Shown: piece after piece, positions 14,424-30,404 of the stretch
How positions within the stretch are numbered: position 1 is the stretch's first letter
Layout: each line of letters begins with the position of its first letter
From: Desulfomonilia bacterium
GTDB lineage: Bacteria; Desulfobacterota; Desulfomonilia; UBA1062
Direction of reading: 5' to 3'
Assembly (NCBI GenBank): GCA_050014195.1
Contig: JBEKDT010000017.1
Span: 34,038-98,037 of the forward strand
Length of the DNA stretch: 64,000 bases
The notes under the pieces: generated by a model
Told to the model about the DNA's origin: nothing
Database searches by the model: none
The model's input: only the letters and a program-made list of their open reading frames with translations
Position numbers and translations under genes: made by a program

Positions 14424-14617
14424 ATATTGGCTTATCCAGATATACAGTATGACTATGTTGATACCATTCCGATATTATTACGCAAAGGCCTTATGTGACA
14501 TTAAGCCGAATGATGGACTGGAAAGGGTCGTTAAGCGAATGAAATGATCAAGATTCAGAAATGGGAATTCGAAGTACAAAAGATTCTCGCTAATTGACCG
14601 GGAAAGTCGAAGAACCA

Positions 14618-16138
14618 ATGCGTGTTAAGAATTGGGAAATGAAAGAGCAATCAGATACCGTGGAGGTATCCGCAGATGTAGACGGCTTTCGCCTGTGGTT
14701 CCGATCACCAAAGTCCTATCCAGTTTCAAGAACAGGCGATCCCTTCCTGGCATCCGCGCTTCTTCCGGCGATGCGCCAAGGAGAGAAGCTTGAGTTTGAC
14801 CCACGCCTGCCCGTTTCCCCGAAGTTACTGAGAAATGCTTTTGTGCTCCAGGAAATTTTCCATTCCTGGAATCCTGAAGAATTGAGAATGATCCCCGTCA
14901 GCGCTAAGACATCACCTGCCGAGCCGCTTAATACTGGCGCCATGTCCTTCTTCTCGGGAGGCGTGGACAGCATGTACACTTTTCTGAAGCGTAAGAATGA
15001 GCTCAGCCATGTGGTTAATATATATGGATTCGATTTCTTCTTCAACAGCGGGGATGCCTCGACATTCTCGGTTGCTGACCTCAAAGACTTGGCGCATTTC
15101 GCATGGAAGCTGATGTTACCGGTTGGCCCGGTGTCTGCCTACTTAAAGGGCATGCTCTCGAAAACAACGCTGCAAACTCTATCAAATTACGTAGATTCGG
15201 GCTCAGATCCAGGAGCAGTGGAAACAAGTCTGGTAGAGGATCTTAACAAGATCATCTCCGGGCAGTTGATCTACGACAGAAAGCGCTTTGCGGGTGTCAA
15301 CTTGCGGCCGCAAACAAGACATTTTATGTCGCGGGACCTGAAGGGAGAGGACCTGAGCGGCCTGAACCGGCTTCTTCTGGAGGACGCTTATCCACGTGAA
15401 ATATCGGGAAAGTATAATGGAGCCTACCAGACGGCCATCGAGCGCAACACCTGCTTCGTTCAAAGCTTTGGGAAGACCCTCGTCCCTGTCGAGAATAATC
15501 ATTATGCTTTTGGATATCGCTACAATCTGAGTAGAAATTTAACACAGGGAAGTGCCTTGGCCAGTGTCGCGCTTCTCCTTGGGTTTCCTCAAGTCTATGT
15601 GCCATCTGCTTATACTTACAGGCAGCTATGTCCTTTGGGTTCGCACCCGCTGACGGATGGGCTATGGTCGAATGAATGTGTAGAAATCATACACGATGGC
15701 TGCGAGGCGGGACGGACAGATAAGCTCAAGATGATATGCGAATGCGAATCAGCTCTTACGAATTTAAGGGTCTGCTTCGATAATGTGAATATCAATTGTG
15801 GAAAGTGTGCAAAGTGTTTGCGCACAATGATGCCCCTAAAATTGCTTCGTGCCTCTGCCGCCCCTTTCCCAACTCTTCCTTCCCTCAAAGTAATTCGGAA
15901 AAGCCGTATCTCTGATGATATCGAAACGAGCTTCTTCAAGGAGACGGTCGACCTTGCTTTGCAGACAGGAGACCAAGAAATGCGGTATGCTTTATGCGCA
16001 TGTATGAAAAGGAATGAACTATTAAAGCTCCTAATAGATCTCGATAAGGTGCTCCTGGGGGGATTCATCAAGCGTGCATATCGAAGAATAGTGCCTGGTA
16101 TAGGGATCCGTCGAATTGATACTACCCCGAGAGATTGA
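14618..16138 (+). CDS. PP-loop ATP pyrophosphatase superfamily protein with a C-terminal Cys cluster; putative amidotransferase/amide ligase
   Basis: It has an SGGxDS motif in 'SFFSGGVDSMYTF' and a Cys cluster 'CFDNVNINCGKCAKC' (C-x7-C-x2-C-x2-C), reminiscent of QueC/ExsB-type zinc sites. There is no glutaminase domain. The track start at 14594 is a TTG; the first ATG is at 14618. The gene is GC-richer than its neighbours. Confidence 0.5.
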   Translation: MRVKNWEMKEQSDTVEVSADVDGFRLWFRSPKSYPVSRTGDPFLASALLPAMRQGEKLEFDPRLPVSPKLLRNAFVLQEIFHSWNPEELRMIPVSAKTSPAEPLNTGAMSFFSGGVDSMYTFLKRKNELSHVVNIYGFDFFFNSGDASTFSVADLKDLAHFAWKLMLPVGPVSAYLKGMLSKTTLQTLSNYVDSGSDPGAVETSLVEDLNKIISGQLIYDRKRFAGVNLRPQTRHFMSRDLKGEDLSGLNRLLLEDAYPREISGKYNGAYQTAIERNTCFVQSFGKTLVPVENNHYAFGYRYNLSRNLTQGSALASVALLLGFPQVYVPSAYTYRQLCPLGSHPLTDGLWSNECVEIIHDGCEAGRTDKLKMICECESALTNLRVCFDNVNINCGKCAKCLRTMMPLKLLRASAAPFPTLPSLKVIRKSRISDDIETSFFKETVDLALQTGDQEMRYALCACMKRNELLKLLIDLDKVLLGGFIKRAYRRIVPGIGIRRIDTTPRD

Positions 16139-16641
16139 GCAGGATTTTCAGCTGGTATGTTGTTGGCTGCATGGCCTCTGCTTTGCAAAATTGCATGAAT
16201 GAAGGGGGAGTCCTTCCTGTGATCAATTTGGACTTGATCGCTATGAGCCTACCACCACTTGAGGCCCTTGAACAATTCCCATTGTGGCAAAACTTGGTTA
16301 GGAGCTGATATTCGACAATAATGGCATTTAATCCAATGATATCATTGCATTAAAATTGATATATTTTCTCTATCTTGAAATTCATGGGGAGTGCTGGAAT
16401 GGGATATAAGGAAACTTTTGCACAGCTCACCGGTGATTAGACGCAGATTTGGAGCTGATAATCTGTGATAACAGCAATTATCCAATTGATATTATTAATG
16501 ATAACTGGTAGTCTTACTTATCATTTAATCTCGTTTAGGGTTAATTCCCACGCTGCTTGCTGCGAAGGCATATTCTTTATAAAAAAATTTGAACCCTATA
16601 GCTTGCTGCAGGGTAGTTCAAAATGAAACAATTGAGGACTT

Positions 16642-18396
16642 ATGAAAAAATTTACATTTAATCTGTTTCACGGGCAGAAGCCCTCCAATAATCAGGAATT
16701 TATAAAATGTTTCCCTACCTGGTGGTACTATACTGAAGGAATACCTGTAAAAGCAGGTGACTTAAATGGAAATGCTAAGTGGCTTCTGGCGGGTCGGCTC
16801 TTAAATGATCAGGATCCGAGTAAAATTATAGATTATTTTTATAGGCGACGTGATTACGAGTATCTATATCAAATTGATGGCCAGTTCATTTTTATTCTGT
16901 ATTTTGAGAATGATGGAAGCGTTGAGATATATCGCGACCGTATTGGTACATTCCCAATTGCATATGCACAAGGTCGAAATGGTATTGCCATATCTGTAGA
17001 TATTAATGACGTAAAGGATATGACCGGTATAGTTCCTTCACCATCAACCGGTATCTTTGAACAATGGCCATTATATCGCAAAACATTTGCACCGGTTTCA
17101 CCATTTTATGAAATTCATACCCTTGCCCCGGAGCATTCTTTACGTATCACAGGCTCTTCTTTTAATGAGATCAGTCACCCCATGTGTTTCCCTACTGAAG
17201 AAGAATATCCTGATATGAATATATCGAGCCAGGTCTTAGGTGACGTACTTTCACGATCGATCCAGAAGAGAATTGAGATTTCAAAGAGAATGGGGGTCTT
17301 TCTCAGCGGGGGGAATGATTCCAGTTTGATTGTGGCAATTGTTAGAAAGTTCTATTTAAAAAAACTGAGAACACTCTTTGTCACATTTGAAGATAACCCT
17401 AGGGATTATGGTCATCATGCCCAGGAGGTAGCCGACAGGTTCGGCACCGATCATTCTTCTGTCACATTGAGCCCGAGAGACTATGTTGGAGTCTGGGCAG
17501 ACACGATTAAAGTGCTGCAAACGCCTGTTCCTATGCCGTGTCATATAGGGATTCATCATGCCTTAAAAATGCTTTCAGGTGATGTTGATTTGATGATTGA
17601 TGGCGATGGTGCTGATACGGTTTTTGGAAGCTCAATATGGCCAGAGATGATATTTTTATCACGTATTAATAGATTTATCCCAACATACCTGAAAGATGGT
17701 ATCGGAAGATTGGCACATTCAATGTCTTGTAATACGACCATAGTGCGAATAGCGGAGATGATTAAGACGGCCCTTAATTCTTCTCTCTATGAATACCCCC
17801 ATGTAAATGCAGCAATGATTTCTGAAAGTGAATTCAATCAGATCTTTCTAAGAGGTGACTGGCAACAGGCAGTTCATTTCAGACAAGGCTTCGCAAGGGG
17901 TGATTTCTATAAAGGATTGTTTTCTTATCTTATGTTGCATGGTATACCGGAAGATCTCGCCACCACTGTCCGCTTGGGTTTGTCGCAGGGCATTTTCTTT
18001 GCGTATCCTTTCTTGGATTATGGTTTATTGCAGGCATCAATGCGATTGCCCAATAAACATCGGTATCATTACCGCATCCGTAAGGCGCCTTTGAAAAAAT
18101 ATTCTTTGAATTATTTCGACAAGGATTTCGTATATAAACCAAAGGAAGGTTTCGGTGTTCCTCTTGCTTCATGGTTCACGAAGAAAGAATTTGAGCCTTT
18201 CCTGATGCTGCCTCTCGAAGAGCGCAGCTTAAAACGTGGGTGGTGGAAGGAACTCGAGTTAAAGAGGATAATAGATTTGCACCGGAGGGGAGAGGGCAAT
18301 GACAGTTCAGCAGAGGCTATACCATGGATTGTAATCAATTTGGAATTATGGGCTCGTATATGTATCGATGGGGATTCTCCGAGTCAGTATAAATAA
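16642..18396 (+). CDS. Asparagine synthetase-like PP-loop protein lacking the N-terminal Cys nucleophile
   Basis: It has a PP-loop 'GVFLSGGNDSSLIVAI'. An AsnB-like N-domain remnant, 'IDGQFIFILYF…YRDRIGTFPIAY', is present, but the protein begins MKKFTF with no Cys2. There is an in-frame stop 3 codons upstream. Confidence 0.7.
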   Translation: MKKFTFNLFHGQKPSNNQEFIKCFPTWWYYTEGIPVKAGDLNGNAKWLLAGRLLNDQDPSKIIDYFYRRRDYEYLYQIDGQFIFILYFENDGSVEIYRDRIGTFPIAYAQGRNGIAISVDINDVKDMTGIVPSPSTGIFEQWPLYRKTFAPVSPFYEIHTLAPEHSLRITGSSFNEISHPMCFPTEEEYPDMNISSQVLGDVLSRSIQKRIEISKRMGVFLSGGNDSSLIVAIVRKFYLKKLRTLFVTFEDNPRDYGHHAQEVADRFGTDHSSVTLSPRDYVGVWADTIKVLQTPVPMPCHIGIHHALKMLSGDVDLMIDGDGADTVFGSSIWPEMIFLSRINRFIPTYLKDGIGRLAHSMSCNTTIVRIAEMIKTALNSSLYEYPHVNAAMISESEFNQIFLRGDWQQAVHFRQGFARGDFYKGLFSYLMLHGIPEDLATTVRLGLSQGIFFAYPFLDYGLLQASMRLPNKHRYHYRIRKAPLKKYSLNYFDKDFVYKPKEGFGVPLASWFTKKEFEPFLMLPLEERSLKRGWWKELELKRIIDLHRRGEGNDSSAEAIPWIVINLELWARICIDGDSPSQYK

Positions 18397-18463: not shown

Positions 18464-19600
18464 ATGAAGATTGGTATTATACGAACTTCGCATAAGGAAA
18501 ATGAACGTCGTGTCCCGATATATCCGGAACACTTACCATGGATTGACCTTGAGTTGAGGAAACATCTTGTTTTCGAGAGTAATTATGGGCAGGATTATGG
18601 CTTTTCAGATGAATATTTTATTCGACATCAATCAAGTTTGTCTGACCGCCAGGGACTATTTAAGACATGTGATATGTTAATTCTACCGAAACCTATTCTT
18701 CAAGATTATGAACAGATGAAGGAATTTCAGACAATATGGGGATGGCATCATTGTGTCCAGGGTAGGAAAATTTCCCAGGCAGCAATTGATCGAAAATTGA
18801 CTTTGATTGCCTGGGAGGCCATGCACCAATGGAGTAAAGGCGGAGAACGCCTTATGCACTCTTTTTATAAAAACAATGAAATAGCTGGTTACTCTGCTGT
18901 TCTACACGTCTTGGAGTTGCTGGGTGTTGATGGGCACTATGGACCGAGGAAAAATGTTATTATTATTGGATACGGTTCAGTCAGTCGCGGAGCAATCTAT
19001 GCTCTTCAGGGAAGAGGATACAATAATATTCATGTCTATACCCGACGCCCAGTACATTTAGTAGCAGATCAGAATCCCGATGTGTATTATCATCATCTAG
19101 AAGTTGCACCAAATGGTCAGATGTTTGGGGTCCATAATGATAGATCAAGACGTCCTTTCGTTGAAGAACTTGCTGAAGCAGATATTATCTGCAATGGTAT
19201 TCTTCAGGATACAGATAATCCTCTGATATTTGTAGATGAAAAAAATATTGATCTTCTAAAACCTCGGTCTGTAATTATTGATATCAGTTGCGATGAGGGT
19301 ATGGGCTTTTCTTTTGCACGTCCAACGACATTTAAAGACCCCATTTTTTCAGTAGGACAAAATATCACTTACTATTCCGTTGACCATATTCCATCTTATC
19401 TTTGGAATGCGGCCTCAAGGGAAATTTCAAGAGTTGTGCTATCTTTTCTGCCGATTTTAGCCGGGGGAATTCAATCCTGGTGTGAATGTGAGACTGTTAA
19501 AAAAGCCATTGAGATACGTAATGGCGTTATACAAAACCCCAAAATACTGTCATTTCAGAATCGACAAGAGGAATATCCACACCTAGAAGTAATTACATAA
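18464..19600 (+). CDS. N5-(1-carboxyethyl)-L-ornithine synthase homologue (AlaDH/PNT superfamily, opine-forming NAD(P)H reductase)
   Basis: Segments recalled from memory match Lactococcus CeoA in order: 'MKIGIIRTSHKENERRVPIYPEHL', 'IWGWHHCVQG', the Rossmann motif 'NVIIIGYGSVSRGAIYA', 'ADIICNGI', and 'IIDISCDEGMGFSF…FKDPIF'. Confidence 0.6.
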   Translation: MKIGIIRTSHKENERRVPIYPEHLPWIDLELRKHLVFESNYGQDYGFSDEYFIRHQSSLSDRQGLFKTCDMLILPKPILQDYEQMKEFQTIWGWHHCVQGRKISQAAIDRKLTLIAWEAMHQWSKGGERLMHSFYKNNEIAGYSAVLHVLELLGVDGHYGPRKNVIIIGYGSVSRGAIYALQGRGYNNIHVYTRRPVHLVADQNPDVYYHHLEVAPNGQMFGVHNDRSRRPFVEELAEADIICNGILQDTDNPLIFVDEKNIDLLKPRSVIIDISCDEGMGFSFARPTTFKDPIFSVGQNITYYSVDHIPSYLWNAASREISRVVLSFLPILAGGIQSWCECETVKKAIEIRNGVIQNPKILSFQNRQEEYPHLEVIT

Positions 19601-19711: not shown

Positions 19712-21049
19712 ATGCATCCATTCATAGCCAAACATCTCATTTATTATCCAATCCAGCTCCTTAGGGGCCAGATAGTCAGAAGATATAAACACCGGGTTAT
19801 CTCCTGCCAAATTGCACCTACCAAAGTGATTTATGAAATCCGTGATAAGAAGATATGTGACCTGATCAAGTATGCCTATAACTATATTCCCTACTATCGT
19901 GAAAAATTTGATGAGCGAGATATTAATCCAGACCGGATCAAAGGATTTAATGATCTGTCATGTCTTCCAATACTGTCTAAGCTTGATATTTTGACTAATG
20001 AACATAATCTCATTTCACACAATTGTAGCCAAAAACTGTATACCAGAAAAACCAGCGGATCGACCGGAATGACCCTCCACTTTCAGAAAGAGGCCAGGGC
20101 ACTGGCGCTCAATGATGCCGTCATGTACCGCTGCTATGCATGGTATGGTATCGATATCGGGGATAAACAAGTTAGGTTCTGGGGGGTGCCGGTAGACCCC
20201 GCTCTGAGACGAAGGGAAAAGGTCAAAGACTTCATCCTAAACAGGATCAGGATCTCGGCTTTCGATATCTCCGAGCAATCCTGTCTGGCGCAGTACCAGA
20301 GAATAAAGCGGTTTAGGCCGGCATATTTTTACGGTTATACTACCGCCATCTACGGTTTCTGCTCCTTTGCACAGAAGCTCGGCCTTGACCTTAATACACT
20401 TGGTCTGAGGGCCGTCATCTGCACTGCTGAGAAGATGTACCCGCATCATCAGGATCTTTTCGATAAGGTGTTCAAATGCCCTGTGGTTGATGAATACGGT
20501 TCCAGCGAGAACGGCATCATCGCCTTCCAGTGTAAAGAGGGGAGCATGCATGTGATGGCGGATCATCTGGCCGTTGAATTTGTAGATGAAGCCGGGCAGA
20601 GGGTTAAACCCGGCGAGCTTGGAAGGATTGTTATAACGGATCTCAATGGATACGCCATGCCCCTTATACGGTATGAGATAGGCGATATGGGAAGGTATAC
20701 GGAACAAGCATGTTCATGTGGAGTAACTTTGCCGGTGATGGACATCATTGAAGGGCGCAAAGAGGATTTCATCCGGACCCGGGAAGGAAAGCTCATCCAT
20801 GCGGCCTACCTCTGTTATACCCTGAAGGATGACGCCGTCCATGAATTCAAAATGTATCAGAAGGATCTCAACAGGTTTCTTGTCCAGATAGTCAAATCGA
20901 ATAAGTTTAATGCAGACTCCCAGAAGAAGCTCGAACATAAACTCAGGACAGCCCTGGGGGATAGCGTAGTTTTTGAGTTCCAGTTTCTGGAAAGGATTCC
21001 GAGAGAGGCATCAGGCAAGCTCAGATATTTCATCTCTGAAATCCGGTAA
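19712..21049 (+). CDS. Phenylacetate-CoA ligase-like adenylate-forming enzyme (CapK/PaaK family)
   Basis: It has the AMP-binding P-loop 'TRKTSGSTGMTLHF'. Its size and context match CapK-type capsule-locus ligases. Confidence 0.65.
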   Translation: MHPFIAKHLIYYPIQLLRGQIVRRYKHRVISCQIAPTKVIYEIRDKKICDLIKYAYNYIPYYREKFDERDINPDRIKGFNDLSCLPILSKLDILTNEHNLISHNCSQKLYTRKTSGSTGMTLHFQKEARALALNDAVMYRCYAWYGIDIGDKQVRFWGVPVDPALRRREKVKDFILNRIRISAFDISEQSCLAQYQRIKRFRPAYFYGYTTAIYGFCSFAQKLGLDLNTLGLRAVICTAEKMYPHHQDLFDKVFKCPVVDEYGSSENGIIAFQCKEGSMHVMADHLAVEFVDEAGQRVKPGELGRIVITDLNGYAMPLIRYEIGDMGRYTEQACSCGVTLPVMDIIEGRKEDFIRTREGKLIHAAYLCYTLKDDAVHEFKMYQKDLNRFLVQIVKSNKFNADSQKKLEHKLRTALGDSVVFEFQFLERIPREASGKLRYFISEIR

Positions 21050-21165: not shown

Positions 21166-21435
21166 ATGGAATTGTATGCCGGATTGGATCTGCATTCACA
21201 GTACACCTACATTGGAGTGCTTGAGAAAGGGAGTATGAGGAAGGTGTTTCAGATGAGGGTATCGAATGAACTGCAGAGGATTATCTCTGCACTGGAGCCA
21301 TTCAGAAATGAGCTCCAAGGTATTGCGATAGAGAGTACTTTCAATTGTTACTGGCTTGTGGATGGGCTTATGGGTAGAGGGCAAAAGGGGAAAATCGGGC
21401 AGCAGATACAGCTCGAATTCATGGTGTTTGAATGA
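21166..21435 (+). pseudogene. IS110-family transposase, N-terminal remnant (truncated)
   Basis: The sequence 'MELYAGLDLHSQYTYIGVL…IAIESTFNCYWLVDGL' matches the IS110 DEDD domain and terminates after 89 aa. Its sequence differs from the 10256 remnant. Confidence 0.6.
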
Positions 21436-21651
21436 AGAATGAACCTAAATCACCAGATCCGATCCTGACCTGGAAATATGCAAAGGTCTCGTATGGAGTG
21501 TGGGAATACCACCGGAAAGAGCAGATAATGGAGGAAATAGGCAGTAAACTAAGCTTTATTTCTTGAGATTTTCATGAAAAAAGCACCAATCAGTTTCCTC
21601 CGATTCCTTTCTTGTCCTTGTGCAAAGGTCTCTGTATGGAGAACATCTCAA

Positions 21652-22746
21652 ATGGACAGTGAAATTTATGATAGATATTCAATCGAAGTGGATAGCATAG
21701 GAGCAGAAGAATGGAACACTGTGCTCAGAGTATTCTCTGATGCGTCTATATTTCAAACATATGAGTATGGGGTCGAAAATTGGGGAAAGAACCATCTTAG
21801 TCATATAGTATTAAGAAAGGATAATGATATAGTGGCTGCTTCCCAAGTCTGGGTGGTAGAACTCCCGATTTTAAAATGTGGTTTTGCCCATATTCCGTGG
21901 GGCCCCATGTGGAAATGCAAAAATCGAGAAAGAGATGTACAGACTGTTAGAATGATGCTTAGAGCGCTAAGAGATGAGTATGTGGAAAAGAGAGGACTTC
22001 TGCTGAGGTTAAGGGGTTACTCGGTATCGGGTACGGATGAAGGCAATGAAGTTATTCAACAGTTGAGCGAAGAAGGATTTACGTTCCAAAAGAGGGAAGC
22101 CGCATATCGTACGTATCGAATTAATCTGACCAAGAGTTTGGAAGAACTGCGTACTAAGTTTAAAGGAAACTGGCGGAGAGATTTAATCAAGGCAGAGAGA
22201 CAAGATCTAGAGATAGAAATAGGGAATAGTGTTTCCATGTTAGTGGTATTTTCAGAGATATATAAAGATATGGTTAGGAGAAAAGGCTTTAAAGAGTATG
22301 TTGCAGACATGAACAAATACATCGAAATGCAGAGAAGGTATCGGGATGATTTGAAGATGAATATCTTTTTATGTAAGCATGAGGGAACTTATGTAGCTGG
22401 CGCTGTTGTTCCGGCAATAGGTGATACGGGGATGTATTTATTAGGGGCAACGAGTACTATATGTTTTGAAAAGAAATTACTTGCTTCTCACCTGATCCAG
22501 TGGCGAGTTCTCAGTTGCTTGAAATCAAATGGATTCCGATACTATGACTTACGTGGAGGGATCGATGGTGACATGGAGGGAGTTAGGCATTTCAAAAGCG
22601 GTCTTTCTGGGGAGGAGATTCACTACATAGGTTCGTATGAGTGTTCTCATAGAGTGTTAAGTGAGGTTGCCGTACGTACTGGTGAACATATTCAAAGAAT
22701 GAAAGCCGGTCTACAAAATTTTGTGTGGAAGTTAGCAAGTAAATAA
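21652..22746 (+). CDS. FemAB-family / GNAT-fold acyl(aminoacyl)transferase-like protein
   Basis: Its size and the motif 'RYYDLRGG…HFKSGLSG' resemble the FemAB/BioF2-like acetyltransferase domain. The track start at 21574 gives a 26-aa hydrophobic or Cys-rich leader 'MKKAPISFLRFLSCPCAKV'. The ATG at 21652 (MDSEIY…) is the more likely start. Either start is possible. Confidence 0.5.
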   Translation: MDSEIYDRYSIEVDSIGAEEWNTVLRVFSDASIFQTYEYGVENWGKNHLSHIVLRKDNDIVAASQVWVVELPILKCGFAHIPWGPMWKCKNRERDVQTVRMMLRALRDEYVEKRGLLLRLRGYSVSGTDEGNEVIQQLSEEGFTFQKREAAYRTYRINLTKSLEELRTKFKGNWRRDLIKAERQDLEIEIGNSVSMLVVFSEIYKDMVRRKGFKEYVADMNKYIEMQRRYRDDLKMNIFLCKHEGTYVAGAVVPAIGDTGMYLLGATSTICFEKKLLASHLIQWRVLSCLKSNGFRYYDLRGGIDGDMEGVRHFKSGLSGEEIHYIGSYECSHRVLSEVAVRTGEHIQRMKAGLQNFVWKLASK

Positions 22747-22837: not shown

Positions 22838-24541
22838 ATGAAAGGGCGTATTACATTCGGTTACCCCGATGATACGAAAGATGTTATTGTTCGCCTTCAG
22901 GGAGAGATATGGTCGATCCAAGGACAGTCAACTCAGGGCATGGATATTCTTGAGCGGATTAAAATTGAATACTTGAATAAAGGAGTTGCTCTATTTGAAA
23001 AATTAGATGGATCATTTTCTCTTGTCATCGAAGATCATCAAAAAATGAAACTCTTTCTTGTACGAGACAAGCTCGGCACTATTCCTCTGTATCACGCAAA
23101 AAAAAGATGTACATTTACCTGGGGCAATCTCATAAGTGATATCCTTTCTGACCTGGAAATTGAAACGTCAGCCAATCATGATGTAATTCATGAATACTTA
23201 GTGTTTCGTTATGTTAGCGGGAGGAATACTCTTTTTCAAGGAATTCATGAGCTTTTACCGGCACATTATCTAGAGGTTGACCTTAGAAAAGGAGAAGTAG
23301 AGGAAAAGCAGTATTGGGATATTCCTTATCCCTGTAAATCTGAAATGATTAAAGATAATGATGAAACCTGTGTCGATAAAATAGAAGAGATTCTAATACG
23401 TATTCTCAAAAGAACTTTAAGTAAGAATTGTCGCTATGGAATCATGTTGAGCGGTGGGCTTGATTCAAGCCTGATAGCAGCTCTTGCGTCAAAACATGTT
23501 AATCATGGTTTCCCAACATTCTTTATAGGATTTACAGATTATGAGAGTGATCGCTCTCATGATGCCCAAATGGTAGCAGAAACATATCATATGATCCATT
23601 CAAATTTCTATGTTAACTCAAAACAGTATGCTGAAGGTCTTATAGAAGCAATCAGAACCAACGAGGAACCACTTAACCATCCCGGTCATGTAGGAAGGGT
23701 TCTTTTCGATTCTCATACAAAAGATAAAGTTGATGCTCTCCTTATGGGAGAAGGAGTCGATACAATGTTTTGTGGGGCAAAGGCTTACCCACTTCTTAAA
23801 TATGGTTATATGTTCAATCCATTCAGGAAATTAACTAGGAGAATATTTTCATTGATAGACCCAGAAATAATTCCCGACTCACATAAGCGGTACTACACAA
23901 AGATAAGAGATGCATTTGTCATGAATGCTGATGAGTATATGATCCGAACTTTTGCAGCGGCAGAATTTCAAGAGGCAAGTGATCTATTGGAGCTTGAGGC
24001 TGATATGAGCTATCTTAACTATTATAAAAGCTTTATATCTGAATGTACGAGAGAAAATGTTCTTGAGAAATACCTTATGCTCAATCAGCACACATTTATA
24101 GTTGAAGTACTGAATTCTGATGCAAAGTATAGAGAATTAAACCAAATAATTAATTATTATCCATTCCTGGATGTCGAATTACTATCGTTTTCAAATCACA
24201 TTCCATTTAAAATACGGACCAAGGGGTTCACGGGAAAATATCTCATCAAGAAACTCGCTGAGAGATATTTTTCCAAGCATTTCATATATCAGCAAAAAGA
24301 GGGCTTTGGTGTGCCTTTGAAGACCTACTTCCAGGATCCAGAGAGTATGGGGAGATATTTTGACCTCCTTTTGGAGAAGAGGACAATGGAAAGAGGAATT
24401 TTTAAAAGGAGAGAACTCTCTAATTTTGTTGAAGGATTTCGGAAAGGCGAAATGCCTTCTGAGAGTTATGAGTCTTTGCTCTGGACTGCAATTAACCTTG
24501 AGTTATGGTACAGGATTTTTATCGATAGGAATGGTGTATGA
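22838..24541 (+). CDS. Asparagine synthetase-like PP-loop protein lacking the N-terminal Cys nucleophile
   Basis: It has a PP-loop 'IMLSGGLDSSLIAALA'. An AsnB-like N-domain, 'DGSFSLVIEDHQKMKLFLVRDKLGTIPLYH', is present, but the protein begins MKGRITFGY and an in-frame TAA lies 3 codons upstream. Confidence 0.7.
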   Translation: MKGRITFGYPDDTKDVIVRLQGEIWSIQGQSTQGMDILERIKIEYLNKGVALFEKLDGSFSLVIEDHQKMKLFLVRDKLGTIPLYHAKKRCTFTWGNLISDILSDLEIETSANHDVIHEYLVFRYVSGRNTLFQGIHELLPAHYLEVDLRKGEVEEKQYWDIPYPCKSEMIKDNDETCVDKIEEILIRILKRTLSKNCRYGIMLSGGLDSSLIAALASKHVNHGFPTFFIGFTDYESDRSHDAQMVAETYHMIHSNFYVNSKQYAEGLIEAIRTNEEPLNHPGHVGRVLFDSHTKDKVDALLMGEGVDTMFCGAKAYPLLKYGYMFNPFRKLTRRIFSLIDPEIIPDSHKRYYTKIRDAFVMNADEYMIRTFAAAEFQEASDLLELEADMSYLNYYKSFISECTRENVLEKYLMLNQHTFIVEVLNSDAKYRELNQIINYYPFLDVELLSFSNHIPFKIRTKGFTGKYLIKKLAERYFSKHFIYQQKEGFGVPLKTYFQDPESMGRYFDLLLEKRTMERGIFKRRELSNFVEGFRKGEMPSESYESLLWTAINLELWYRIFIDRNGV

Positions 24542-24561: not shown

Positions 24562-25713
24562 ATGTACACGAATCCTCAGAAATTGGGAATTATTAAACCA
24601 CTCAGTCACATGAATGAACTTTTCAAAATCGAGGATATGTGGAGAAATATATATGAAACGGTATCTCCTAATTCAATTTTTATTTCTTTTGACTATATTA
24701 TGCTGTGGTATAATTGCTTTGCTAGGCCCGAGCAGGTGAGGGTCTATCCAGCATATGAAGGTGATAAAATTATAGGTTATCTTCCATTAATATTAAATAA
24801 AAAAGGGCCATTTCGGTTTCTGTCAAGCCTTACCAATCTACATTGCTTTCACCCTGCTGCACTAATTGCTGAAGGTTATGAAGAGACATTTTCTAACAGT
24901 TGCTTGCACGCAATATTTTCAGATAAATGCGGCTGGGATGTTTTTCAATACCGTAGCGGCTACTCCTTCCAATATGGTCTAAGTTTGAGCATACTAAGTC
25001 CATTAGCCTATCACTTCAAAGAAATCAAACTACCAACATATTCTATGCTTATACCAGGTTCTTTTGAAGAATATTTCAATAAGCATCTATCCCCTCAAAT
25101 GCGTAAAAATGCAAAAAGCTCAAAAAAAAGGCTACAAACAGTTCCCTCATATAGATTTTGCCACTATACAGGAGATGATGCTGTTGCATCATGGCCTACG
25201 TTTCTATCGATTGAAGATTCTGGGTGGAAGGGAGTAAAAGGTTCATCATTAAAGAAGCTTCCTCAGAACTATCATTCATATTATGTAGGCCTCATCGATA
25301 TGTTATCTAAAAATAACCAGTTACACATGTATTTTCTCGAAATCAATGGCCACCCTGTTGCGGGTACATTCTGTTATGTGGATCAAGATGTGTTTCACGC
25401 TTGGAAGGCCGGATACGTAGAAGAATTTTCCTCGCTCTCTCCCTCAACCCTGCTCTTACTTTATATCATAGAAGATCTCAATACTAATTTTCCAATGGTG
25501 AAACGTCTGCACATGTTTCCTGGTGATTTTGGCTATAAACACCGTTATGTTAACGAAGAATCTTTTTATTCTGAAGTCGTCTTGTACGATAGAACAATTC
25601 TCGGAAGTTCCGCACATATTCTTTCCCCGATAAAACAAAGAGTTGAGCTACTTCCAGGTATGTCTGCTGCCATTGGGTTTATTAGAAAGCATTTTTTTAG
25701 AGATGATGATTAA
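24562..25713 (+). CDS. CelD/BioF2-like GNAT-fold acetyltransferase-domain protein (FemAB-like)
   Basis: At 383 aa its architecture is typical of PF13480-like proteins found in EPS loci. It has a strong RBS (GGAGG) and lies 20 nt after the AsnB-like gene. Confidence 0.5.
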   Translation: MYTNPQKLGIIKPLSHMNELFKIEDMWRNIYETVSPNSIFISFDYIMLWYNCFARPEQVRVYPAYEGDKIIGYLPLILNKKGPFRFLSSLTNLHCFHPAALIAEGYEETFSNSCLHAIFSDKCGWDVFQYRSGYSFQYGLSLSILSPLAYHFKEIKLPTYSMLIPGSFEEYFNKHLSPQMRKNAKSSKKRLQTVPSYRFCHYTGDDAVASWPTFLSIEDSGWKGVKGSSLKKLPQNYHSYYVGLIDMLSKNNQLHMYFLEINGHPVAGTFCYVDQDVFHAWKAGYVEEFSSLSPSTLLLLYIIEDLNTNFPMVKRLHMFPGDFGYKHRYVNEESFYSEVVLYDRTILGSSAHILSPIKQRVELLPGMSAAIGFIRKHFFRDDD

Positions 25714-26132: not shown

Positions 26133-26168
26133 TATAACTATCATTAATAAAAATATACAGGAGGTCAT

Positions 26169-26801
26169 ATGAAAAAAACTTTCATGACAATCGCAGCACT
26201 TTTTATTGTGCTCGGATTCACAGCATCAGTAGGAGCAACTACAATTCAAATTGTCGGCAGCTATTCGACTCTGGATTCGCTGACCTTCACTCTTCTTGGC
26301 CACACCTACCACGACCAGTTGGTGGGTGAGTTTAATCTCCTTATCGATAGCAAGCCGGAAACAGGATATTGTGTTGACTTGGGTCATCTTTTATATGTTC
26401 CCAGCGGACCCTTTAATGTAAACCTTACTAGCGATCTGACCGATGAGGGCGATGTCCCCAACGGGTATGAAGCAGCATGGTTGTGGAACTATGTGGGTGA
26501 TGCTCTAGATAAGGACCATAGAGCAGCGTTGCAGTTGGCAATATGGGATGTTGTGTTTGGGCCGGTTACCGGTATCTCCGAGCCGGCAGTCGCCGCAGAA
26601 TACAATGCTTACTTAGCAGATCTTGCATTATATAGCTCATTTAATGGTGCAGGGTATGCTATTGCTGAACTAGGTGACCTACGCACACCATACCAGGATC
26701 TGCTGGTAAAAACCCCCGCCCCCGTTCCTGAGCCCATGACACTGTTGCTTCTCGGGTCAGGTCTTCTCGGACTGGCAGGATTCAGAAGGAAGATGAAATA
26801 G
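26169..26801 (+). CDS. PEP-CTERM sorting-domain protein (exosortase cargo)
   Basis: It has a signal peptide 'MKKTFMTIAALFIVLGFTASVGA'. The C-terminus 'PVPEPMTLLLLGSGLLGLAGFRRKMK' is the PEP motif, then a TM helix, then a basic tail. Confidence 0.85.
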   Translation: MKKTFMTIAALFIVLGFTASVGATTIQIVGSYSTLDSLTFTLLGHTYHDQLVGEFNLLIDSKPETGYCVDLGHLLYVPSGPFNVNLTSDLTDEGDVPNGYEAAWLWNYVGDALDKDHRAALQLAIWDVVFGPVTGISEPAVAAEYNAYLADLALYSSFNGAGYAIAELGDLRTPYQDLLVKTPAPVPEPMTLLLLGSGLLGLAGFRRKMK

Positions 26802-26830
26802 TAATACAACATATTGACTGGGTTTCAGAG

Positions 26831-26864
26831 GCAGGGCCATTGAAAGGCCCTGCCTTTTTATTTA
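26831..26864 (+). terminator. Rho-independent terminator after the PEP-CTERM gene
   Basis: GCAGGGCC-attgaaa-GGCCCTGC is followed by CTTTTTATTTATT. Confidence 0.6.
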
Positions 26865-27029: not shown

Positions 27030-27200
27030 TGTCAGTCATTGCGAGCGTAGCGAAGCAATCCCTGCATCTTGGCACATTCTAGGTTTGTCGAGATTGCCAT
27101 GTCGCCTTTGGTTCCTCGCAATGACCGATTAGTAGGCTTTGCAAAGGTTTCAATAGGGAGATGACCAACCTGATGTTTTCATCGGGATTGGTCATCATTC
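27030..27200. repeat. Degenerate palindromic repeat element (GTCATTGCGAG…CTCGCAATGAC plus a second hairpin ATGACCAA…TTGGTCAT)
   Basis: The arms are at 27036-27046 and 27114-27124, and there is an inner hairpin at about 27151-27196. It resembles a widespread bacterial intergenic palindromic repeat whose frames read …HCERSEAI… / …PRNDR…. Confidence 0.3.
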
Positions 27201-27359
27201 TTTATAGGAGCTATTTTAGACGCGATGTGGTGGTGGGGAAGGCCTTGTGCCCGCCCTTTCTTTATTGTCACGCCATGATCGCGAATAAATTCGCTCCTAC
27301 GGGGTGGTAGGGAATGCCGGGTGTAGATCATAGAATGAAGTCAGTCCCTTGCAGCACGA

Positions 27360-27989
27360 TTACTTTTTATATCGCTTCAACAATATGTTTACACTATATT
27401 TATTCAAGAAATATACCTTTACTAAAAGTAAGATAGGTTTAGCTCCAAGTTTTTGCTTGAACCTCATTGCGGATATATTGAAGTATTCGGTTATACTATA
27501 GATCTTATAACAACCCATTCCATGGAGATGTTTATAAAACTGAAGTCTAAGATATGGTGCTATGCCCCTACCTCGGTACTCCTCTACTGTAAGAGCATTG
27601 GACAGATATGCTTCATCATGGTCCAACAGAAAAGGATAAAGGTTTGAATCACACTCCCGTGTATTACACCACATATGTGCGATAATACGAGTCCCGCACA
27701 TAAGGCCAAGGCATAACCACCCTCTTTCCAACCTCTCCAGCAGTATCTCCTCTGTCTCCTTTACACCGGGTGTCTCTGATACCTGTTTCATATCTAAAGA
27801 TCCCAGTAAGAGCAGATTAAATTCATCTGCATTCATCTTAATGCTGATGGCAGAGTGTGTAAGTGATCCGAGTCCTTCCTCCATCACATAAAAAGGCACT
27901 ATACGGACCAATGACTTGGATATGTCATAGAGAGATTGTAGTAAAGAATGCTTATTAATAAATTCTTTTGTTCTGAATAAAGGGTTCAT
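27360..27989 (-). CDS. GNAT-family N-acetyltransferase
   Basis: It has motif A 'VEEYRGRGIAPYLRLQFY'. The track ORF, which reaches 28058, overlaps kce by 65 nt. The ATG at 27989 (MNPLFR) lies 4 nt after the kce stop and is the more likely start. Confidence 0.55.
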   Translation of the reverse strand: MNPLFRTKEFINKHSLLQSLYDISKSLVRIVPFYVMEEGLGSLTHSAISIKMNADEFNLLLLGSLDMKQVSETPGVKETEEILLERLERGWLCLGLMCGTRIIAHMWCNTRECDSNLYPFLLDHDEAYLSNALTVEEYRGRGIAPYLRLQFYKHLHGMGCYKIYSITEYFNISAMRFKQKLGAKPILLLVKVYFLNKYSVNILLKRYKK

Positions 27990-27993
27990 AATT

Positions 27994-28827
27994 CTATATC
28001 TGAAGGATCTCCCTTGCCTCATGCGGTGAATAAGGGCTGAAGCCCATTGCCTTTGCAATGGTCACCACTCGTTTTACCAACGAATAATTCGTAGCAAGCT
28101 TACTCCTATCGCTATCGAACCATATATTATCTTCCAACCCCACTCTCACACCACCTCCTGATATGATGGAGATTACATTCATCTTGAGCTGGGAATTTCC
28201 TATCCCACCTACAGACCAGACAGAATGTTCAGGTAATTCCCTTACCATAAGGCCGAGATGAAGTATATCTGCTTGAGCACAGGCAATGTTTCCCAGGATC
28301 AGGTTAAAATAATATGGAGGTTCAATAAGGTCTTTATTTATTAGGTACTTTGCATAATTAATCATGCCAAGGTCAAAGGCTTCAAGTTCTGGCTTAATCC
28401 TCTCTTTCATCATCTTCGCCGCAAGGGCTTGAATCATGTCCGGAGTGCTGATGCTTGCCTGCTTATTAAAATTTAGTGAGCTTAAGGTGAGGCTGGCAAA
28501 ATCCGGCTTTAGCTCACCTTTAAGATCGAGGCAGTCTGATCTTTGTTCAAATGCATTAAAATCTCTTCCGCTTGTTGAAACCCCTAAAATCAGATCCTTA
28601 TTTCTCTGCCGTATCCCATGGATAATTTCTCCATAAATCTCTTTTTTATAAGTTACTCTGCCTGTTTCGGGGTCCCTTGCATGAAGATGCACCATGCTTG
28701 CACCGAGAGTAGCAATATCAAGTACCTCTTGGACGATATCACCTGGGGTTAAAGCAATATGTGGTGTCATTTCTTTGGTAGGGATCATGCCTGTTGGGGT
28801 GAAATTTAATATAAACTTATTTGACAT
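27994..28827 (-). CDS. kce: 3-keto-5-aminohexanoate cleavage enzyme family (BKACE/DUF849) protein
   Basis: The motifs 'FILNFTPTGMIPTK…ALTPGDIVQEVLDIATLGASMVHLHARDPETG' and 'RVVTIAKAMGFSPYSPHEAREIL' match Kce. Confidence 0.8.
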   Translation of the reverse strand: MSNKFILNFTPTGMIPTKEMTPHIALTPGDIVQEVLDIATLGASMVHLHARDPETGRVTYKKEIYGEIIHGIRQRNKDLILGVSTSGRDFNAFEQRSDCLDLKGELKPDFASLTLSSLNFNKQASISTPDMIQALAAKMMKERIKPELEAFDLGMINYAKYLINKDLIEPPYYFNLILGNIACAQADILHLGLMVRELPEHSVWSVGGIGNSQLKMNVISIISGGGVRVGLEDNIWFDSDRSKLATNYSLVKRVVTIAKAMGFSPYSPHEAREILQI

Positions 28828-29078
28828 ATGCCACCGCCATCGCAGACAATTCTTTTATTACTATCAAGCCAATTGCAAAACTCGCAGTTTGCGATAATAT
28901 TGCAATAAGCCTGATAACTAATTGAAGATATGAAGACAAAACTCTATTCTTTTTGTGTAGAGCAAAAAGAAAGGAGTAAAGATGAGCAATCTCTTCGACA
29001 TCTAGCATACCACATAGGCGATACTTTTTCCATTTTAACAGTAACGGCACACGATATGCTGATTGCAATGAAGCATGC

Positions 29079-30404
29079 TTATCCCCTTCCGATGCCGAAA
29101 TAGGTAAACCCGTGTGAATGCATCTCAGGTGGATTGAGTATGTTTCTCCCGTCAAAGATTACAGGGCGCTTCAAGAGATCTTTCATGCGCTTGATGTCCG
29201 GGCTCTTGAACATGTTCCATTCGGTGATAATGGCCAGGGCATCGGACCCTTCAATGGCTGCGTAATGGTCATGCGCATATGTGATCCTCTCACCGAGAAT
29301 CCGTCGTGCATTCTCTTTTCCCTCGGGATCGAAGGCCTTTACTGTTATGCCCTGAGACAAGAGCGCTTCGATAATATCAAGAGCAGGTGATTCACGCACA
29401 TCATCGGTCTTGGGCTTGAAGGTGAGGCCCCAGATTGCGATTGTGATCTTGTTGAGATCCTCACCATGGAAGAAGTTGATTATCTTCTGGGCAAAGTAGC
29501 GCTTCTGCCGCTGGTTTGCACGCCAAGTCGCCTCACAGATCTCTAGGGTATGATCATTGCTCTTTGCAGTTGCAATAAGGGCCTGAACATCTTTAGGGAA
29601 ACATGAACCTCCAAACCCAGGCCCGGCAAGGAGGAAACGTGGGCCAATACGATCATCCGTGCCCATACCCTCCCTTACGAGGTCGATATTCGCACCGAGC
29701 TTATCACAGAGGATGGCAAGCTCGTTGATAAAGGATACCTTGGTAGCCAGGAAGCAGTTGGATGCGTACTTGGTGAGTTCCGCGCTTCTGATGTCCATTA
29801 CGATAATGGGATTGTTCGTCGTCTTGATGAAAGGGCTATAGAGCTCCTTGAGGATCTCGGCAGTGCGGACGTTGTCTGTGCCGATGATCACCCGGTCAGG
29901 CCGCATGAAGTCCTGGATGGCATTGCCTTCCTTGAGAAATTCCGGGTTGGACACCATGTCGAACTCCAAGTGTTTAAGCAGCCTGGCATCTAGTTTTCTC
30001 CTGATCGTATCGTGCACCTTCTCCGCGGTCCCTACCGGGACCGTGGATTTGTCGACAATGATCTTGTAGTCGTCTATGATGTCGCCAAGCTGGGAGGCGA
30101 CGGTGAGCACGTAGGAGAGGTCTGCCGAACCGTCTTTATCCTGCGGTGTGCCGACACAGATGAAACAAAGCAGGCTCTTCTTTACACCCTCCTGCAAGTC
30201 GGTGGTGAAGATGATCCTTCCTTCTTCCTTGTTTCGGGCAATGATGTCCTTGAGCCCGGGCTCATAGATAGGTACTTCTCCCCTCTGAAGCATAGAGATC
30301 TTTTCTGAGTTCTCATCAACACAAATAACATCATTGCCCATTTCAGCAAGACATGCCCCGGTAACAAGCCCAACGTATCCACTGCCGATCATACAGATTT
30401 TCAT
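29079..30404 (-). CDS. ugd: UDP-glucose 6-dehydrogenase (nucleotide-sugar dehydrogenase)
   Basis: The N-terminus 'MKICMIGSGYVGLVTGACLAEMGNDVICVD' and 'GGSCFPKD' match Ugd. Confidence 0.85.
   Translation of the reverse strand: MKICMIGSGYVGLVTGACLAEMGNDVICVDENSEKISMLQRGEVPIYEPGLKDIIARNKEEGRIIFTTDLQEGVKKSLLCFICVGTPQDKDGSADLSYVLTVASQLGDIIDDYKIIVDKSTVPVGTAEKVHDTIRRKLDARLLKHLEFDMVSNPEFLKEGNAIQDFMRPDRVIIGTDNVRTAEILKELYSPFIKTTNNPIIVMDIRSAELTKYASNCFLATKVSFINELAILCDKLGANIDLVREGMGTDDRIGPRFLLAGPGFGGSCFPKDVQALIATAKSNDHTLEICEATWRANQRQKRYFAQKIINFFHGEDLNKITIAIWGLTFKPKTDDVRESPALDIIEALLSQGITVKAFDPEGKENARRILGERITYAHDHYAAIEGSDALAIITEWNMFKSPDIKRMKDLLKRPVIFDGRNILNPPEMHSHGFTYFGIGRG

What the first reader, a model, noticed from the sequence alone, without database searches (positions are those of the whole stretch)
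14594..30404. Candidate undescribed pathway for amide-linking an opine-type amino acid to uronic-acid residues of an exopolysaccharide
The exopolysaccharide island contains a clear homologue of N5-(1-carboxyethyl)-L-ornithine synthase (18464-19600). That enzyme reductively condenses pyruvate with the side-chain amine of Orn/Lys using NADPH. The island also contains two asparagine-synthetase-like enzymes (16642-18396 and 22838-24541) and a third PP-loop protein (14618-16138). All three lack a glutaminase nucleophile. They are therefore expected to adenylate a carboxylate and amidate it with an exogenous amine rather than with glutamine-derived NH3. The locus also encodes UDP-glucose 6-dehydrogenase (29079-30404), which supplies uronic-acid carboxylates. 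N-epsilon-(1-carboxyethyl)-lysine amide-linked to GalA/GlcA occurs in Proteus/Providencia O-antigens. To my knowledge the enzymes that make and attach it are not assigned. This gene combination is a plausible candidate for that chemistry or a close analogue: CEOS-like makes the opine, a Cys-less AsnB-like protein ligates it to the sugar carboxyl, and Ugd makes the acid sugar. I have not seen it described as a cassette.
Basis: partly seen in the sequence, partly recalled or inferred. Interest (0 to 1): 0.85.

Follow-up and report, generated by a model that had tools for sequence, protein, structure and literature searches.

The report
Opine-synthase-like gene in polysaccharide decoration cassette
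An exopolysaccharide gene island carries an uncharacterised relative of carboxyethyl-ornithine synthase next to several ATP-dependent amide-forming enzymes, a pairing that recurs across many bacterial phyla, including a Providencia O-antigen locus, and so gives testable candidate genes for the long-known but genetically unassigned "opine" amino acids on bacterial surface sugars.

Summary

C is not a close CEOS homologue: identity is 26-28%. It belongs to a large separate family that is sister to Lactococcus CEOS (99% NJ bootstrap). It shares CEOS-only motifs, an indel and an NADPH-type signature, and it is not an alanine dehydrogenase.

The new evidence is comparative. In 21 of the 25 closest loci, C is directly flanked by an ATP-dependent carboxylate-amine ligase of one of five types: TupA-like or RimK-like ATP-grasp, A-like, Cys-less AsnB-like, or CapK-like. 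A gammaproteobacterial clade (Providencia rettgeri, E. coli plasmid, Shewanella, Vibrio, Edwardsiella) has ATP-grasp + C + wzx/wzy + GTs, mostly with ugd and an epimerase.

The general idea of an opine-type amino acid amide-linked to an acidic polysaccharide is therefore supported. The specific claim that the AsnB-like protein is the ligase is not. No chemistry has been demonstrated.

The parts
14618..16138 (+). A: QueC-like PP-loop (adenine-nucleotide alpha-hydrolase fold) protein of an unannotated family. Candidate carboxylate-adenylating amidoligase.
16642..18396 (+). B: asparagine-synthetase-like PP-loop enzyme. The N-terminal domain is truncated or diverged and has no Cys nucleophile.
   Evidence: PF00733 scores 154 bits. 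TIGR01536 scores 120 bits against a cut-off of 267, matching from model position 109 only. No upstream extension is possible. The alignment to human ASNS starts at ASNS residue 98.
18464..19600 (+). C: member of a large uncharacterised AlaDH/PNT-fold family that is sister to N5-(1-carboxyethyl)ornithine synthase. Predicted NADPH-dependent reductive 2-oxo-acid/amine condensing enzyme (opine-type).
   Evidence: Identities and motifs are, and the bootstrap is. R16, K76, H96 and D273/D277 are conserved in the family. Ligase adjacency is shown.
19712..21049 (+). D: PaaK/CapK-like adenylate-forming enzyme.
   Evidence: PF00501 hit. Precomputed CapK_C hit. PaaK-type NCBIfam hits fall below their cut-offs. 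PDB relatives are PaaK and AjiA1. In L004 a CapK_C protein directly precedes the C homologue.
21574..22746 (+). E: FemAB-family protein (possible aminoacyl transferase). Public gene calls start it at 21652.
   Evidence: PF02388 scores 54.7 bits against a cut-off of 24. TIGR03019 scores only 15 bits.
22838..24541 (+). F: second asparagine-synthetase-like PP-loop enzyme lacking the Cys nucleophile.
   Evidence: PF00733 scores 152 bits. TIGR01536 scores 192 bits against a cut-off of 267, matching from model position 109. F residue 3 aligns to residue 70 of TsnB9 7ylz.
24562..25713 (+). G: Acetyltransf_6 (FemAB-like GNAT) protein, starting 20 nt after F.
   Evidence: PF13480 scores 74.5 bits.
26169..26801 (+). 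H: PEP-CTERM sorting-signal protein, followed by a terminator-like hairpin.
   Evidence: PF07589 scores 27.4 bits against a cut-off of 20.7, and TIGR02595 also hits. The hairpin is at 26827-26857.
29079..30404 (-). K: UDP-glucose 6-dehydrogenase, the source of UDP-GlcA.
   Evidence: TIGR03026 scores 463 bits against a cut-off of 190. TuaD scores 504 bits, while WecC-type models score only 163-184 bits.
49..14222 (+). Assembly half of the same island: GT4 glycosyltransferases, Wzx flippase (2030-3472), Wzy/O-antigen-ligase-like protein (5792-7087), polysaccharide deacetylase (7087-8106), Pel9A-like beta-helix protein (8321-10129), and WecB UDP-GlcNAc 2-epimerase (10780-11919).

Best explanation
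**What the region is.** Window 1-30.6 kb is a Wzx/Wzy-type exopolysaccharide island associated with a PEP-CTERM protein, in an uncultured bacterium. Its second half (14.6-25.7 kb) is a decoration module.

**Proposed mechanism.**
1. C is an NADPH-type enzyme related to carboxyethyl-ornithine synthase. It reductively condenses a 2-oxo acid (most likely pyruvate) with an amino group of an amino acid (most likely the side-chain amine of Lys or Orn). The product is an opine-type amino acid.
2. One of the neighbouring ATP-dependent adenylating enzymes then joins this substituent to the sugar chain by an amide bond. The candidates are A (QueC-like), B/F (Cys-less AsnB-like) and D (PaaK/CapK-like). 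The most plausible attachment point is the C6 carboxylate of glucuronic acid supplied by Ugd.
3. The remaining ligases and the two Fem-like transferases probably add or amidate further carboxyl or amino groups.

**Shown:**
- the gene content;
- the fold and family of each protein;
- the absence of a glutaminase nucleophile;
- the CEOS sister relationship;
- the conserved coupling between C and a ligase.

**Inferred:**
- the substrates;
- which ligase acts;
- whether C acts before or after ligation;
- the acceptor sugar.
For: **C is CEOS-like, not AlaDH.**
- The alaDH equivalog scores 61 bits against a cut-off of 392.
- The C-family + CEOS clade appears in 99% of 300 NJ bootstraps.
- C and CEOS share a 12-residue loop deletion, the YKN[NS]..AGY and GWxH motifs, and a Y-x-R-[RK] strand end where AlaDH has the NAD-selecting Asp.
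- The catalytic Arg, Lys, His and Asp are invariant in the family.

**C is coupled to ligases.**
- In the 25 closest loci from GTDB genomes and one metagenome contig, 26 of 50 flanking ORFs are ligase-like.
- Only 16 of the 348 other ORFs are ligase-like (Fisher p 1.7e-16).
- 21 of 25 loci have a ligase directly adjacent to C.
- L095 reads TupA-C-A-AsnB-382 aa-flippase.
- In L019, AsnB-like genes flank C on both sides.

**Gammaproteobacterial clade.**
- This clade is 42% identical to the window's C.
- It has a RimK-like ATP-grasp gene overlapping the start of C, followed by wzx, GTs and wzy.
- Epimerase and ugd follow in the E. coli plasmid, P. rettgeri (directly after cpxA), Shewanella, E. 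tarda and V. cholerae.

**Biochemical precedent.**
- The TupA-like ATP-grasp domain of C. jejuni Cj1438 amidates the C6 carboxylate of GlcA with an amine and ATP (PMC11800379).
- Nε-(1-carboxyethyl)-L-lysine amide-linked to GalA exists in Providencia rustigianii O14 (PMC10609480).
Against: - No member of the C family, the A family or these AsnB-like subfamilies has been assayed.
- Identity to real CEOS is only 26-28%, and C is about 65 residues longer.
- The window itself contains no ATP-grasp ligase, so the ligase role here rests on analogy.
- About 55 more distant C homologues (47-52% identity) stand alone next to unrelated genes. The family is therefore not exclusively glycan-linked.
- Ugd was detected within 10 kb in only a few of the environmental loci.
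- A-family proteins mostly occur without C: only 2 of 32 long A-centred loci contain C.
- The related loci are not phylogenetically independent, so the p-value overstates the evidence.
Confidence: 0.5

Rival explanations
1. The parts are the same, but the order or substrate differs. A ligase first attaches an ordinary diamino acid (or another amine) to the sugar chain. C then carboxyethylates the free amine on the sugar-linked intermediate. Alternatively, C acts on the amine of an amino sugar, for example after the island's deacetylase has exposed GlcN.
For: - C and its ligase are often translationally coupled, with overlapping genes in L085, L177-L182 and L183. That fits either order.
- A polysaccharide deacetylase is encoded at 7087-8106.
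- Many loci carry 2-4 ligases.
Against: - CEOS, the nearest characterised relative, uses free amino acids (established knowledge).
- Many C-family genes stand alone away from any glycan genes. That suggests a small free substrate.
- No sugar aminotransferase is present in the minimal gammaproteobacterial cassette.
Confidence: 0.2
2. C is not an opine synthase. It is an amino-acid dehydrogenase that supplies a particular amino acid from its 2-oxo acid and ammonia, and the adjacent ligases then attach that amino acid to the polymer.
For: - The AlaDH catalytic residues are all conserved.
- Many annotation pipelines call these proteins alanine dehydrogenase.
- Uronic acids amidated with ordinary amino acids are common (PMC10609480).
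Against: - C falls far below the alaDH equivalog cut-off.
- It groups with CEOS at 99% bootstrap.
- It lacks the AlaDH loop and the NAD-type Asp.
- Cells already make the common amino acids, so a dedicated enzyme glued to the ligase would be hard to explain.
Confidence: 0.15
3. The co-location has no pathway meaning for this window.
- B and F make simple primary uronamides with free ammonia, or act on something else.
- D, E and G add unrelated acyl or aminoacyl groups.
- C is a passenger.
For: - AsnB-type synthetase domains can use NH3 (established knowledge), and uronamides are frequent.
- AsnB-like and FemAB-like genes are generic companions of PEP-CTERM EPS loci, as the NCBIfam model names TIGR03108 and TIGR03019 indicate.
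- An IS-like fragment lies between D and E, which shows the block is a mosaic.
Against: - Ligase genes are strongly enriched exactly at the positions flanking C, across many phyla.
- The same A-C-AsnB combination recurs in L095. The AsnB-C-AsnB combination recurs in L019.
Confidence: 0.1

Closest known systems
N5-(1-carboxyethyl)-L-ornithine synthase (CEOS, EC 1.5.1.24) of Lactococcus
   Same: - AlaDH/PNT two-domain fold.
- A shared loop deletion.
- The YKN[NS]..AGY and GWxH motifs.
- A basic, NADPH-type end of the second Rossmann strand.
- Sister clades at 99% bootstrap.
   Different: - Only 26-28% identity.
- C is about 65 residues longer. It has an insertion at about 197-225 and a C-terminal extension.
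- The genomic context differs: glycan loci rather than Lactococcus plasmids or transposons.
- The activity of C is untested.
Cj1438 C-terminal TupA-like ATP-grasp amidoligase of Campylobacter jejuni capsule
   Same: It is an ATP-dependent enzyme that amidates the GlcA C6 carboxylate of a polysaccharide with an amine (PMC11800379). TupA-like ATP-grasp genes are the commonest neighbours of C-family genes.
   Different: - The window has no ATP-grasp gene. Its candidate ligases are PP-loop and ANL-type enzymes.
- The Campylobacter amines are serinol phosphate and ethanolamine phosphate, not an opine.
XrtA/PEP-CTERM exopolysaccharide loci (TIGR03108 amidotransferase, TIGR03019 FemAB-family protein)
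   Same: An EPS locus with a PEP-CTERM protein, AsnB-family enzymes, FemAB-family proteins, GT4 transferases and an O-antigen-ligase-like polymerase.
   Different: - B and F score 108 and 179 bits against a cut-off of 817, and they lack the Cys nucleophile.
- E scores 15 bits against a cut-off of 260.
- No exosortase gene was seen in 1-32 kb.
- C and A are not described parts of that system.
QueC (7-cyano-7-deazaguanine synthase) and the QueC-like CBASS protein Cap9
   Same: For protein A:
- An SGGxDS motif.
- A C-terminal Cys cluster, as in the QueC zinc site.
   Different: - A has 506 residues, with an N-terminal beta domain and a helical insertion of about 140 residues.
- It matches no QueC sequence model.
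- It lies in glycan loci.

Membership tests
N5-(carboxyethyl)ornithine synthase (CEOS) | AlaDh_PNT_N + AlaDh_PNT_C architecture with a basic, NADPH-type end of Rossmann strand 2 | tested here: met
   PF05222 and PF01262 both hit. C has HVYTRRP and CEOS has RMYYRKT, where AlaDH has VLD.
N5-(carboxyethyl)ornithine synthase (CEOS) | Sequence-level membership in the clade of characterised Lactococcus CEOS | tested here: not met
   C is 26-28% identical to CEOS. It forms a separate monophyletic family that is sister to CEOS. Used as a query, CEOS does not retrieve the plasmid-borne C-family genes at E <= 1e-6.
N5-(carboxyethyl)ornithine synthase (CEOS) | NADPH-dependent condensation of pyruvate with the side-chain amine of Orn/Lys | not testable with these tools
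   This requires an enzyme assay.
L-alanine dehydrogenase (TIGR00518) | Score above the equivalog cut-off, and the NAD-selecting Asp and lid loop | tested here: not met
   C scores 61 bits against a cut-off of 392. The loop is deleted and the Asp is replaced.
Glutamine-hydrolysing asparagine synthetase (AsnB, TIGR01536) | N-terminal Cys nucleophile of the Ntn glutaminase domain | tested here: not met
   B starts MKKFTF and F starts MKGRITF. No upstream extension is possible. Alignments begin at template residues 98 and 70. Scores are 120 and 192 bits against a cut-off of 267.
Glutamine-hydrolysing asparagine synthetase (AsnB, TIGR01536) | PP-loop SGGxDS and the C-terminal catalytic Lys of the synthetase domain | tested here: met
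   The PP-loops are SGGNDSS and SGGLDSS. The lysine motifs are KPKEGFGVP and QQKEGFGVP. PF00733 covers the full length of the synthetase domain.
XrtA/PEP-CTERM system amidotransferase (TIGR03108) | Score above the curated cut-off | tested here: not met
   B scores 108.6 bits and F scores 179.2 bits, against a cut-off of 816.9.
QueC-like PP-loop ATPases (protein A) | Adenine-nucleotide alpha-hydrolase fold with a PP-loop | tested here: met
QueC-like PP-loop ATPases (protein A) | Match to QueC sequence models (true QueC) | tested here: not met
   There is no Pfam or NCBIfam hit at E <= 0.01.
PEP-CTERM/exosortase system | PEP-CTERM sorting-signal protein in the locus | tested here: met
   PF07589 scores 27.4 bits against a cut-off of 20.7. 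TIGR02595 scores 23.6 bits against a cut-off of 16.
PEP-CTERM/exosortase system | Exosortase (EpsH/XrtA) gene in the locus | not tested
   No ORF of 1-32 kb that was scanned matched an exosortase model, but not every ORF was scanned. The contig also continues upstream of the window. A related locus, L004, does carry Exosortase_EpsH.

The most novel reading that the evidence does not exclude
The C family is the missing enzyme that makes the N-(1-carboxyethyl) amino acids, such as Nε-(1-carboxyethyl)-lysine, found on Providencia, Proteus and Shewanella polysaccharides. It defines a pan-bacterial, modular 'opine-amide' glycan decoration system in which five unrelated ATP-dependent ligase types are interchangeable. 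Those types include a previously unrecognised QueC-like glycan amidoligase family (A) and Cys-less AsnB-like enzymes.
Probability: 0.3. Interest if true: 0.75.

Novelty: new variant of a known kind. Interest (0 to 1): 0.62.

Why it matters
Opine-type amino acids amide-linked to uronic acids have been known in O-antigens for decades. Within the literature I could search, no genes are assigned to them.

If the C family makes them, three things follow:
- A large gene family would get a function.
- Serotype-determining chemistry could be predicted from sequence.
- Glyco-engineers would gain a small cassette (ligase + C) for adding charged, zwitterionic side chains to polysaccharides.

The finding also points to culturable or already-sequenced test systems:
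- Providencia rettgeri;
- an E. coli plasmid;
- Aeromonas;
- Shewanella;
- Dechloromonas;
- Pseudoduganella buxea.

Tried and rejected
- **tblastn co-occurrence.** A simple tblastn of the window proteins with a 50% coverage filter was too insensitive. It was replaced by ORF clustering, Pfam, phmmer and jackhmmer.
- **First bootstrap attempts.** One gave a corrupted tree because the Kimura distance was undefined at high divergence. It was redone with capped and p-distances.
- **Literature searches.** Searches for a gene assignment of carboxyethyl-lysine or alanopine in glycans found nothing relevant. The Proteus and Providencia O-antigen gene-cluster papers do not discuss amino-acid attachment. 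A marine-glycan review did not contain the Shewanella fidelis structure I recalled, so that point rests on memory only.
- **PDB sequence searches with the ATP-grasp neighbours.** These gave only marginal PurD/PurK hits.
- **'A is an obligate partner of C'.** Considered and rejected: only 2 of 32 long A-centred metagenome loci contain C.
- **'B or F regain a glutaminase through an alternative start'.** Considered and rejected: in-frame stops lie upstream, and the 500-nt spacer before B is AT-rich.
- **Rfam.** Only a tRNA was found. Promoter and terminator scans were at background level.


Full report
**1. What is in the sequence**

Window 1-30.6 kb is one polysaccharide island. Its assembly half contains:
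- GT4 glycosyltransferases;
- a Wzx flippase (2030-3472);
- a Wzy/O-antigen-ligase-like protein (5792-7087);
- a polysaccharide deacetylase (7087-8106);
- a Pel9A-like beta-helix protein;
- WecB (10780-11919, above its equivalog cut-off).

A block follows that I call the decoration module. All of its genes are on the + strand:

| Gene | Coordinates | Assignment |
|---|---|---|
| A | 14618-16138 | PP-loop protein, no family hit |
| B | 16642-18396 | AsnB-like |
| C | 18464-19600 | AlaDH/PNT fold |
| D | 19712-21049 | PaaK/CapK-like |
| E | 21574-22746 | FemAB family |
| F | 22838-24541 | AsnB-like |
| G | 24562-25713 | Acetyltransf_6 GNAT |

After the module come:
- a PEP-CTERM protein (26169-26801);
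- a GNAT and a BKACE gene on the minus strand;
- UDP-glucose 6-dehydrogenase (29079-30404, minus strand);
- a tRNA.

Beyond 32 kb the genes are housekeeping ones such as UvrB and CysRS. The identical locus occurs on about 108-kb metagenome contigs.

**2. The three PP-loop proteins**

B and F have full-length Asn_synthase domains with intact SGGxDS loops and the C-terminal KEGF lysine motif.
- Their match to AsnB models starts only at model position 109.
- They begin MKKFTF and MKGRITF.
- Their ORFs cannot be extended upstream.

The Ntn cysteine, and the 40-65 residues around it, are therefore missing.

A matches no Pfam or NCBIfam model.
- It belongs to a family of at least 674 proteins in two size classes.
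- It folds confidently, with pLDDT 91.
- Foldseek finds no PDB neighbour.
- With SGGVDS and four conserved cysteines, A is best described as a QueC-like carboxylate-adenylating enzyme. It has an extra N-terminal beta domain and a large helical insertion.

**3. What C is**

C scores 61 bits against the alanine dehydrogenase equivalog, whose cut-off is 392. It has no solved relative other than AlaDH and PntA at about 24% identity.

PGAP labels 42-44% identical plasmid genes 'N(5)-(carboxyethyl)ornithine synthase'. The Lactococcus-type CEOS on plasmids is only 26-28% identical to C, so 'clear homologue' is too strong.

The relationship to CEOS is nevertheless specific:
- In an alignment with three CEOS, four AlaDH and one PntA, the C family and CEOS share a 12-residue deletion of an AlaDH loop.
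- They share the YKN[NS]xxAGY and GWxH motifs.
- They share a Y-x-R-[RK] end of the second Rossmann strand, where AlaDH has the NAD-selecting Asp.
- NJ bootstrapping gives 99% support for a C-family + CEOS clade and 1% for C-family + AlaDH.
- The substrate-binding and catalytic Arg16, Lys76, His96 and Asp273/277 are invariant.

I conclude that C is a member of a distinct, uncharacterised sister family of CEOS. It is probably NADPH-dependent and probably condenses a 2-oxo acid with an amine.

**4. Comparative genomics, the main new evidence**

A scan of one genome per GTDB species returned 80 loci at 46-68% identity from many phyla. I called ORFs and classified them with clustering, Pfam and profile searches.

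In the 25 closest loci:
- The ORFs immediately flanking C are ATP-dependent carboxylate-amine ligases in 26 of 50 positions.
- Only 16 of the 348 other ORFs are ligase-like (Fisher p 1.7e-16).
- 21 of 25 loci have at least one adjacent ligase.
- The loci are related, so this p-value is generous.

The ligases are of five unrelated types:
- TupA-like ATP-grasp;
- RimK-like ATP-grasp, often with a PGA_cap protein;
- A-like;
- Cys-less or diverged AsnB-like;
- CapK-like.

Examples include:
- TupA-C-A-AsnB-382 aa-flippase (L095);
- AsnB-C-AsnB (L019);
- AsnB-like directly before C in two cultured Dechloromonas strains;
- CapK-C in an exosortase locus (L004).

The roughly 55 more distant homologues (47-52% identity) stand alone beside unrelated genes such as NrdD and S9 peptidases.

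In the reverse direction, A-family genes mostly occur without C. C is therefore a module that is combined with whichever ligase a locus uses.

**5. A gammaproteobacterial clade links the family to known chemistry**

An E. coli plasmid homologue is 42% identical to the window's C. It lies in a capsule-type locus, and a 322-residue protein overlaps its start. That protein belongs to the same RimK-like ATP-grasp family as the environmental neighbours.

Close relatives of this C occur in Aeromonas, Shewanella, Vibrio cholerae, Providencia rettgeri, Edwardsiella tarda, Pseudoalteromonas and others. In every context examined, the order is ATP-grasp, C, wzx, glycosyltransferases, wzy. In five of the six contexts an NAD-dependent epimerase and ugd follow.

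In P. rettgeri the cluster sits directly after cpxA. cpxA borders the O-antigen cluster in the related genus Proteus (PMC5560731). My recollection is that the same holds for Providencia.

In three E. coli chromosomes, the pair survives together in an IS-decayed island.

Two published facts make the chemistry plausible:
- Nε-[(S)-1-carboxyethyl]-L-lysine amide-linked to GalA occurs in the Providencia rustigianii O14 antigen (PMC10609480).
- The TupA-like ATP-grasp domain of C. jejuni Cj1438 has been shown to amidate the C6 carboxylate of GlcA with an amine and ATP (PMC11800379).

From memory, and not confirmed here, Shewanella fidelis also carries this lysine derivative.

**6. Mechanism proposed, and its limits**

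*Most likely reading (confidence about 0.5).*
1. C makes an opine-type amino acid from a 2-oxo acid and an amino acid.
2. A neighbouring ATP-dependent ligase joins it by an amide bond to the polysaccharide, most plausibly at glucuronic acid made by Ugd.
3. The other ligases and the Fem-like proteins extend or amidate further groups.

*What is shown:*
- the gene content;
- the folds;
- the loss of the glutaminase nucleophile;
- the CEOS sister relationship;
- the C-ligase coupling.

*What is inferred:*
- the substrates;
- the order of steps;
- the acceptor;
- which of A, B, D or F is the ligase in this window, which has no ATP-grasp gene.

Free ammonia or an intramolecular amine are alternatives.

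Ugd was found near C in only a few of the environmental loci.

**7. Comparison with what is known, and novelty**

The island works like a combination of three things:
- a CEOS-type opine synthase;
- a Cj1438-type uronate amidoligase;
- the AsnB/FemAB-containing PEP-CTERM EPS loci.

It fails the membership tests for CEOS proper, AlaDH, glutamine-dependent AsnB, TIGR03108, TIGR03019 and QueC.

My literature searches found no description of this cassette, and no gene assignment for carboxyethyl amino acids in glycans. The library lacks most subscription carbohydrate journals, so prior mention cannot be excluded.

I rate it a new variant of a known kind. It is of solid interest because it turns an old structural observation into a directly testable gene-function hypothesis in culturable bacteria.

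Noticed in passing
window 21166-21435 (+): An 89-codon ORF begins MELYAGLDLHSQYTYIGVL. It looks like the N-terminal fragment of an IS110-type transposase. It lies in the 525-nt gap between D and E, which suggests the decoration block is a mosaic joined by an old insertion. This was judged by eye only.
   Followed up: no
window 27360-28827 (-): A BKACE-family gene (PF05853, 265 bits; below the 3-keto-5-aminohexanoate cleavage enzyme cut-off) overlaps a GNAT acetyltransferase gene. The pair sits between the PEP-CTERM gene and ugd. This is an unusual pair for a polysaccharide island and could make an uncommon acyl group.
   Followed up: no
window 30556-30628 (-) and the whole window: A tRNA gene sits immediately after ugd, at the island edge. 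G+C is 0.36-0.46 across 1-32 kb but 0.57-0.62 at 54-64 kb. Both features are consistent with a horizontally acquired island.
   Followed up: partly
L085 (E. coli plasmid NZ_AP027746.1), L177/L178 (Providencia rettgeri), L179-L182: One compact cluster is shared at 72-99% protein identity of its C-family gene among E. coli, Aeromonas, P. rettgeri, V. cholerae and E. tarda. Its order is ATP-grasp, C-family gene, wzx, GT4, a 273-aa protein, GT2, wzy, epimerase, ugd. Shewanella and Pseudoalteromonas carry a variant with the same first four genes but different downstream glycosyltransferases. The cluster is evidently mobile.
   Followed up: partly
L183 (E. coli chromosome NZ_CP148570.1, 10962-13078 of the locus): The ATP-grasp + C pair persists intact in an island next to tRNA-Phe. 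Around it the glycan genes are broken by IS elements, leaving a flippase fragment and an 'ATP-grasp fold amidoligase' fragment.
   Followed up: no
L029-L084 (e.g. L063 Ancylomarina salipaludis): A subgroup of the C family at about 47-52% identity stands alone beside unrelated genes (NrdD/NrdG, S9 peptidase, methyltransferase) in Bacteroidota, Cloacimonadota and others. Its role is unknown and may involve a free metabolite.
   Followed up: partly
A-family proteins P0192/P0233, L009, L014, L095: The QueC-like family comes in a ~507-aa form and a ~384-aa form, and the two are often encoded side by side. The shorter form appears to lack part of the longer form.
   Followed up: no
window 26827-26857 (+): A strong terminator-like hairpin (12 pairs, 8 of them G-C, followed by a T-rich tail) lies directly after the PEP-CTERM protein gene. 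It probably marks the end of the plus-strand operon.
   Followed up: no
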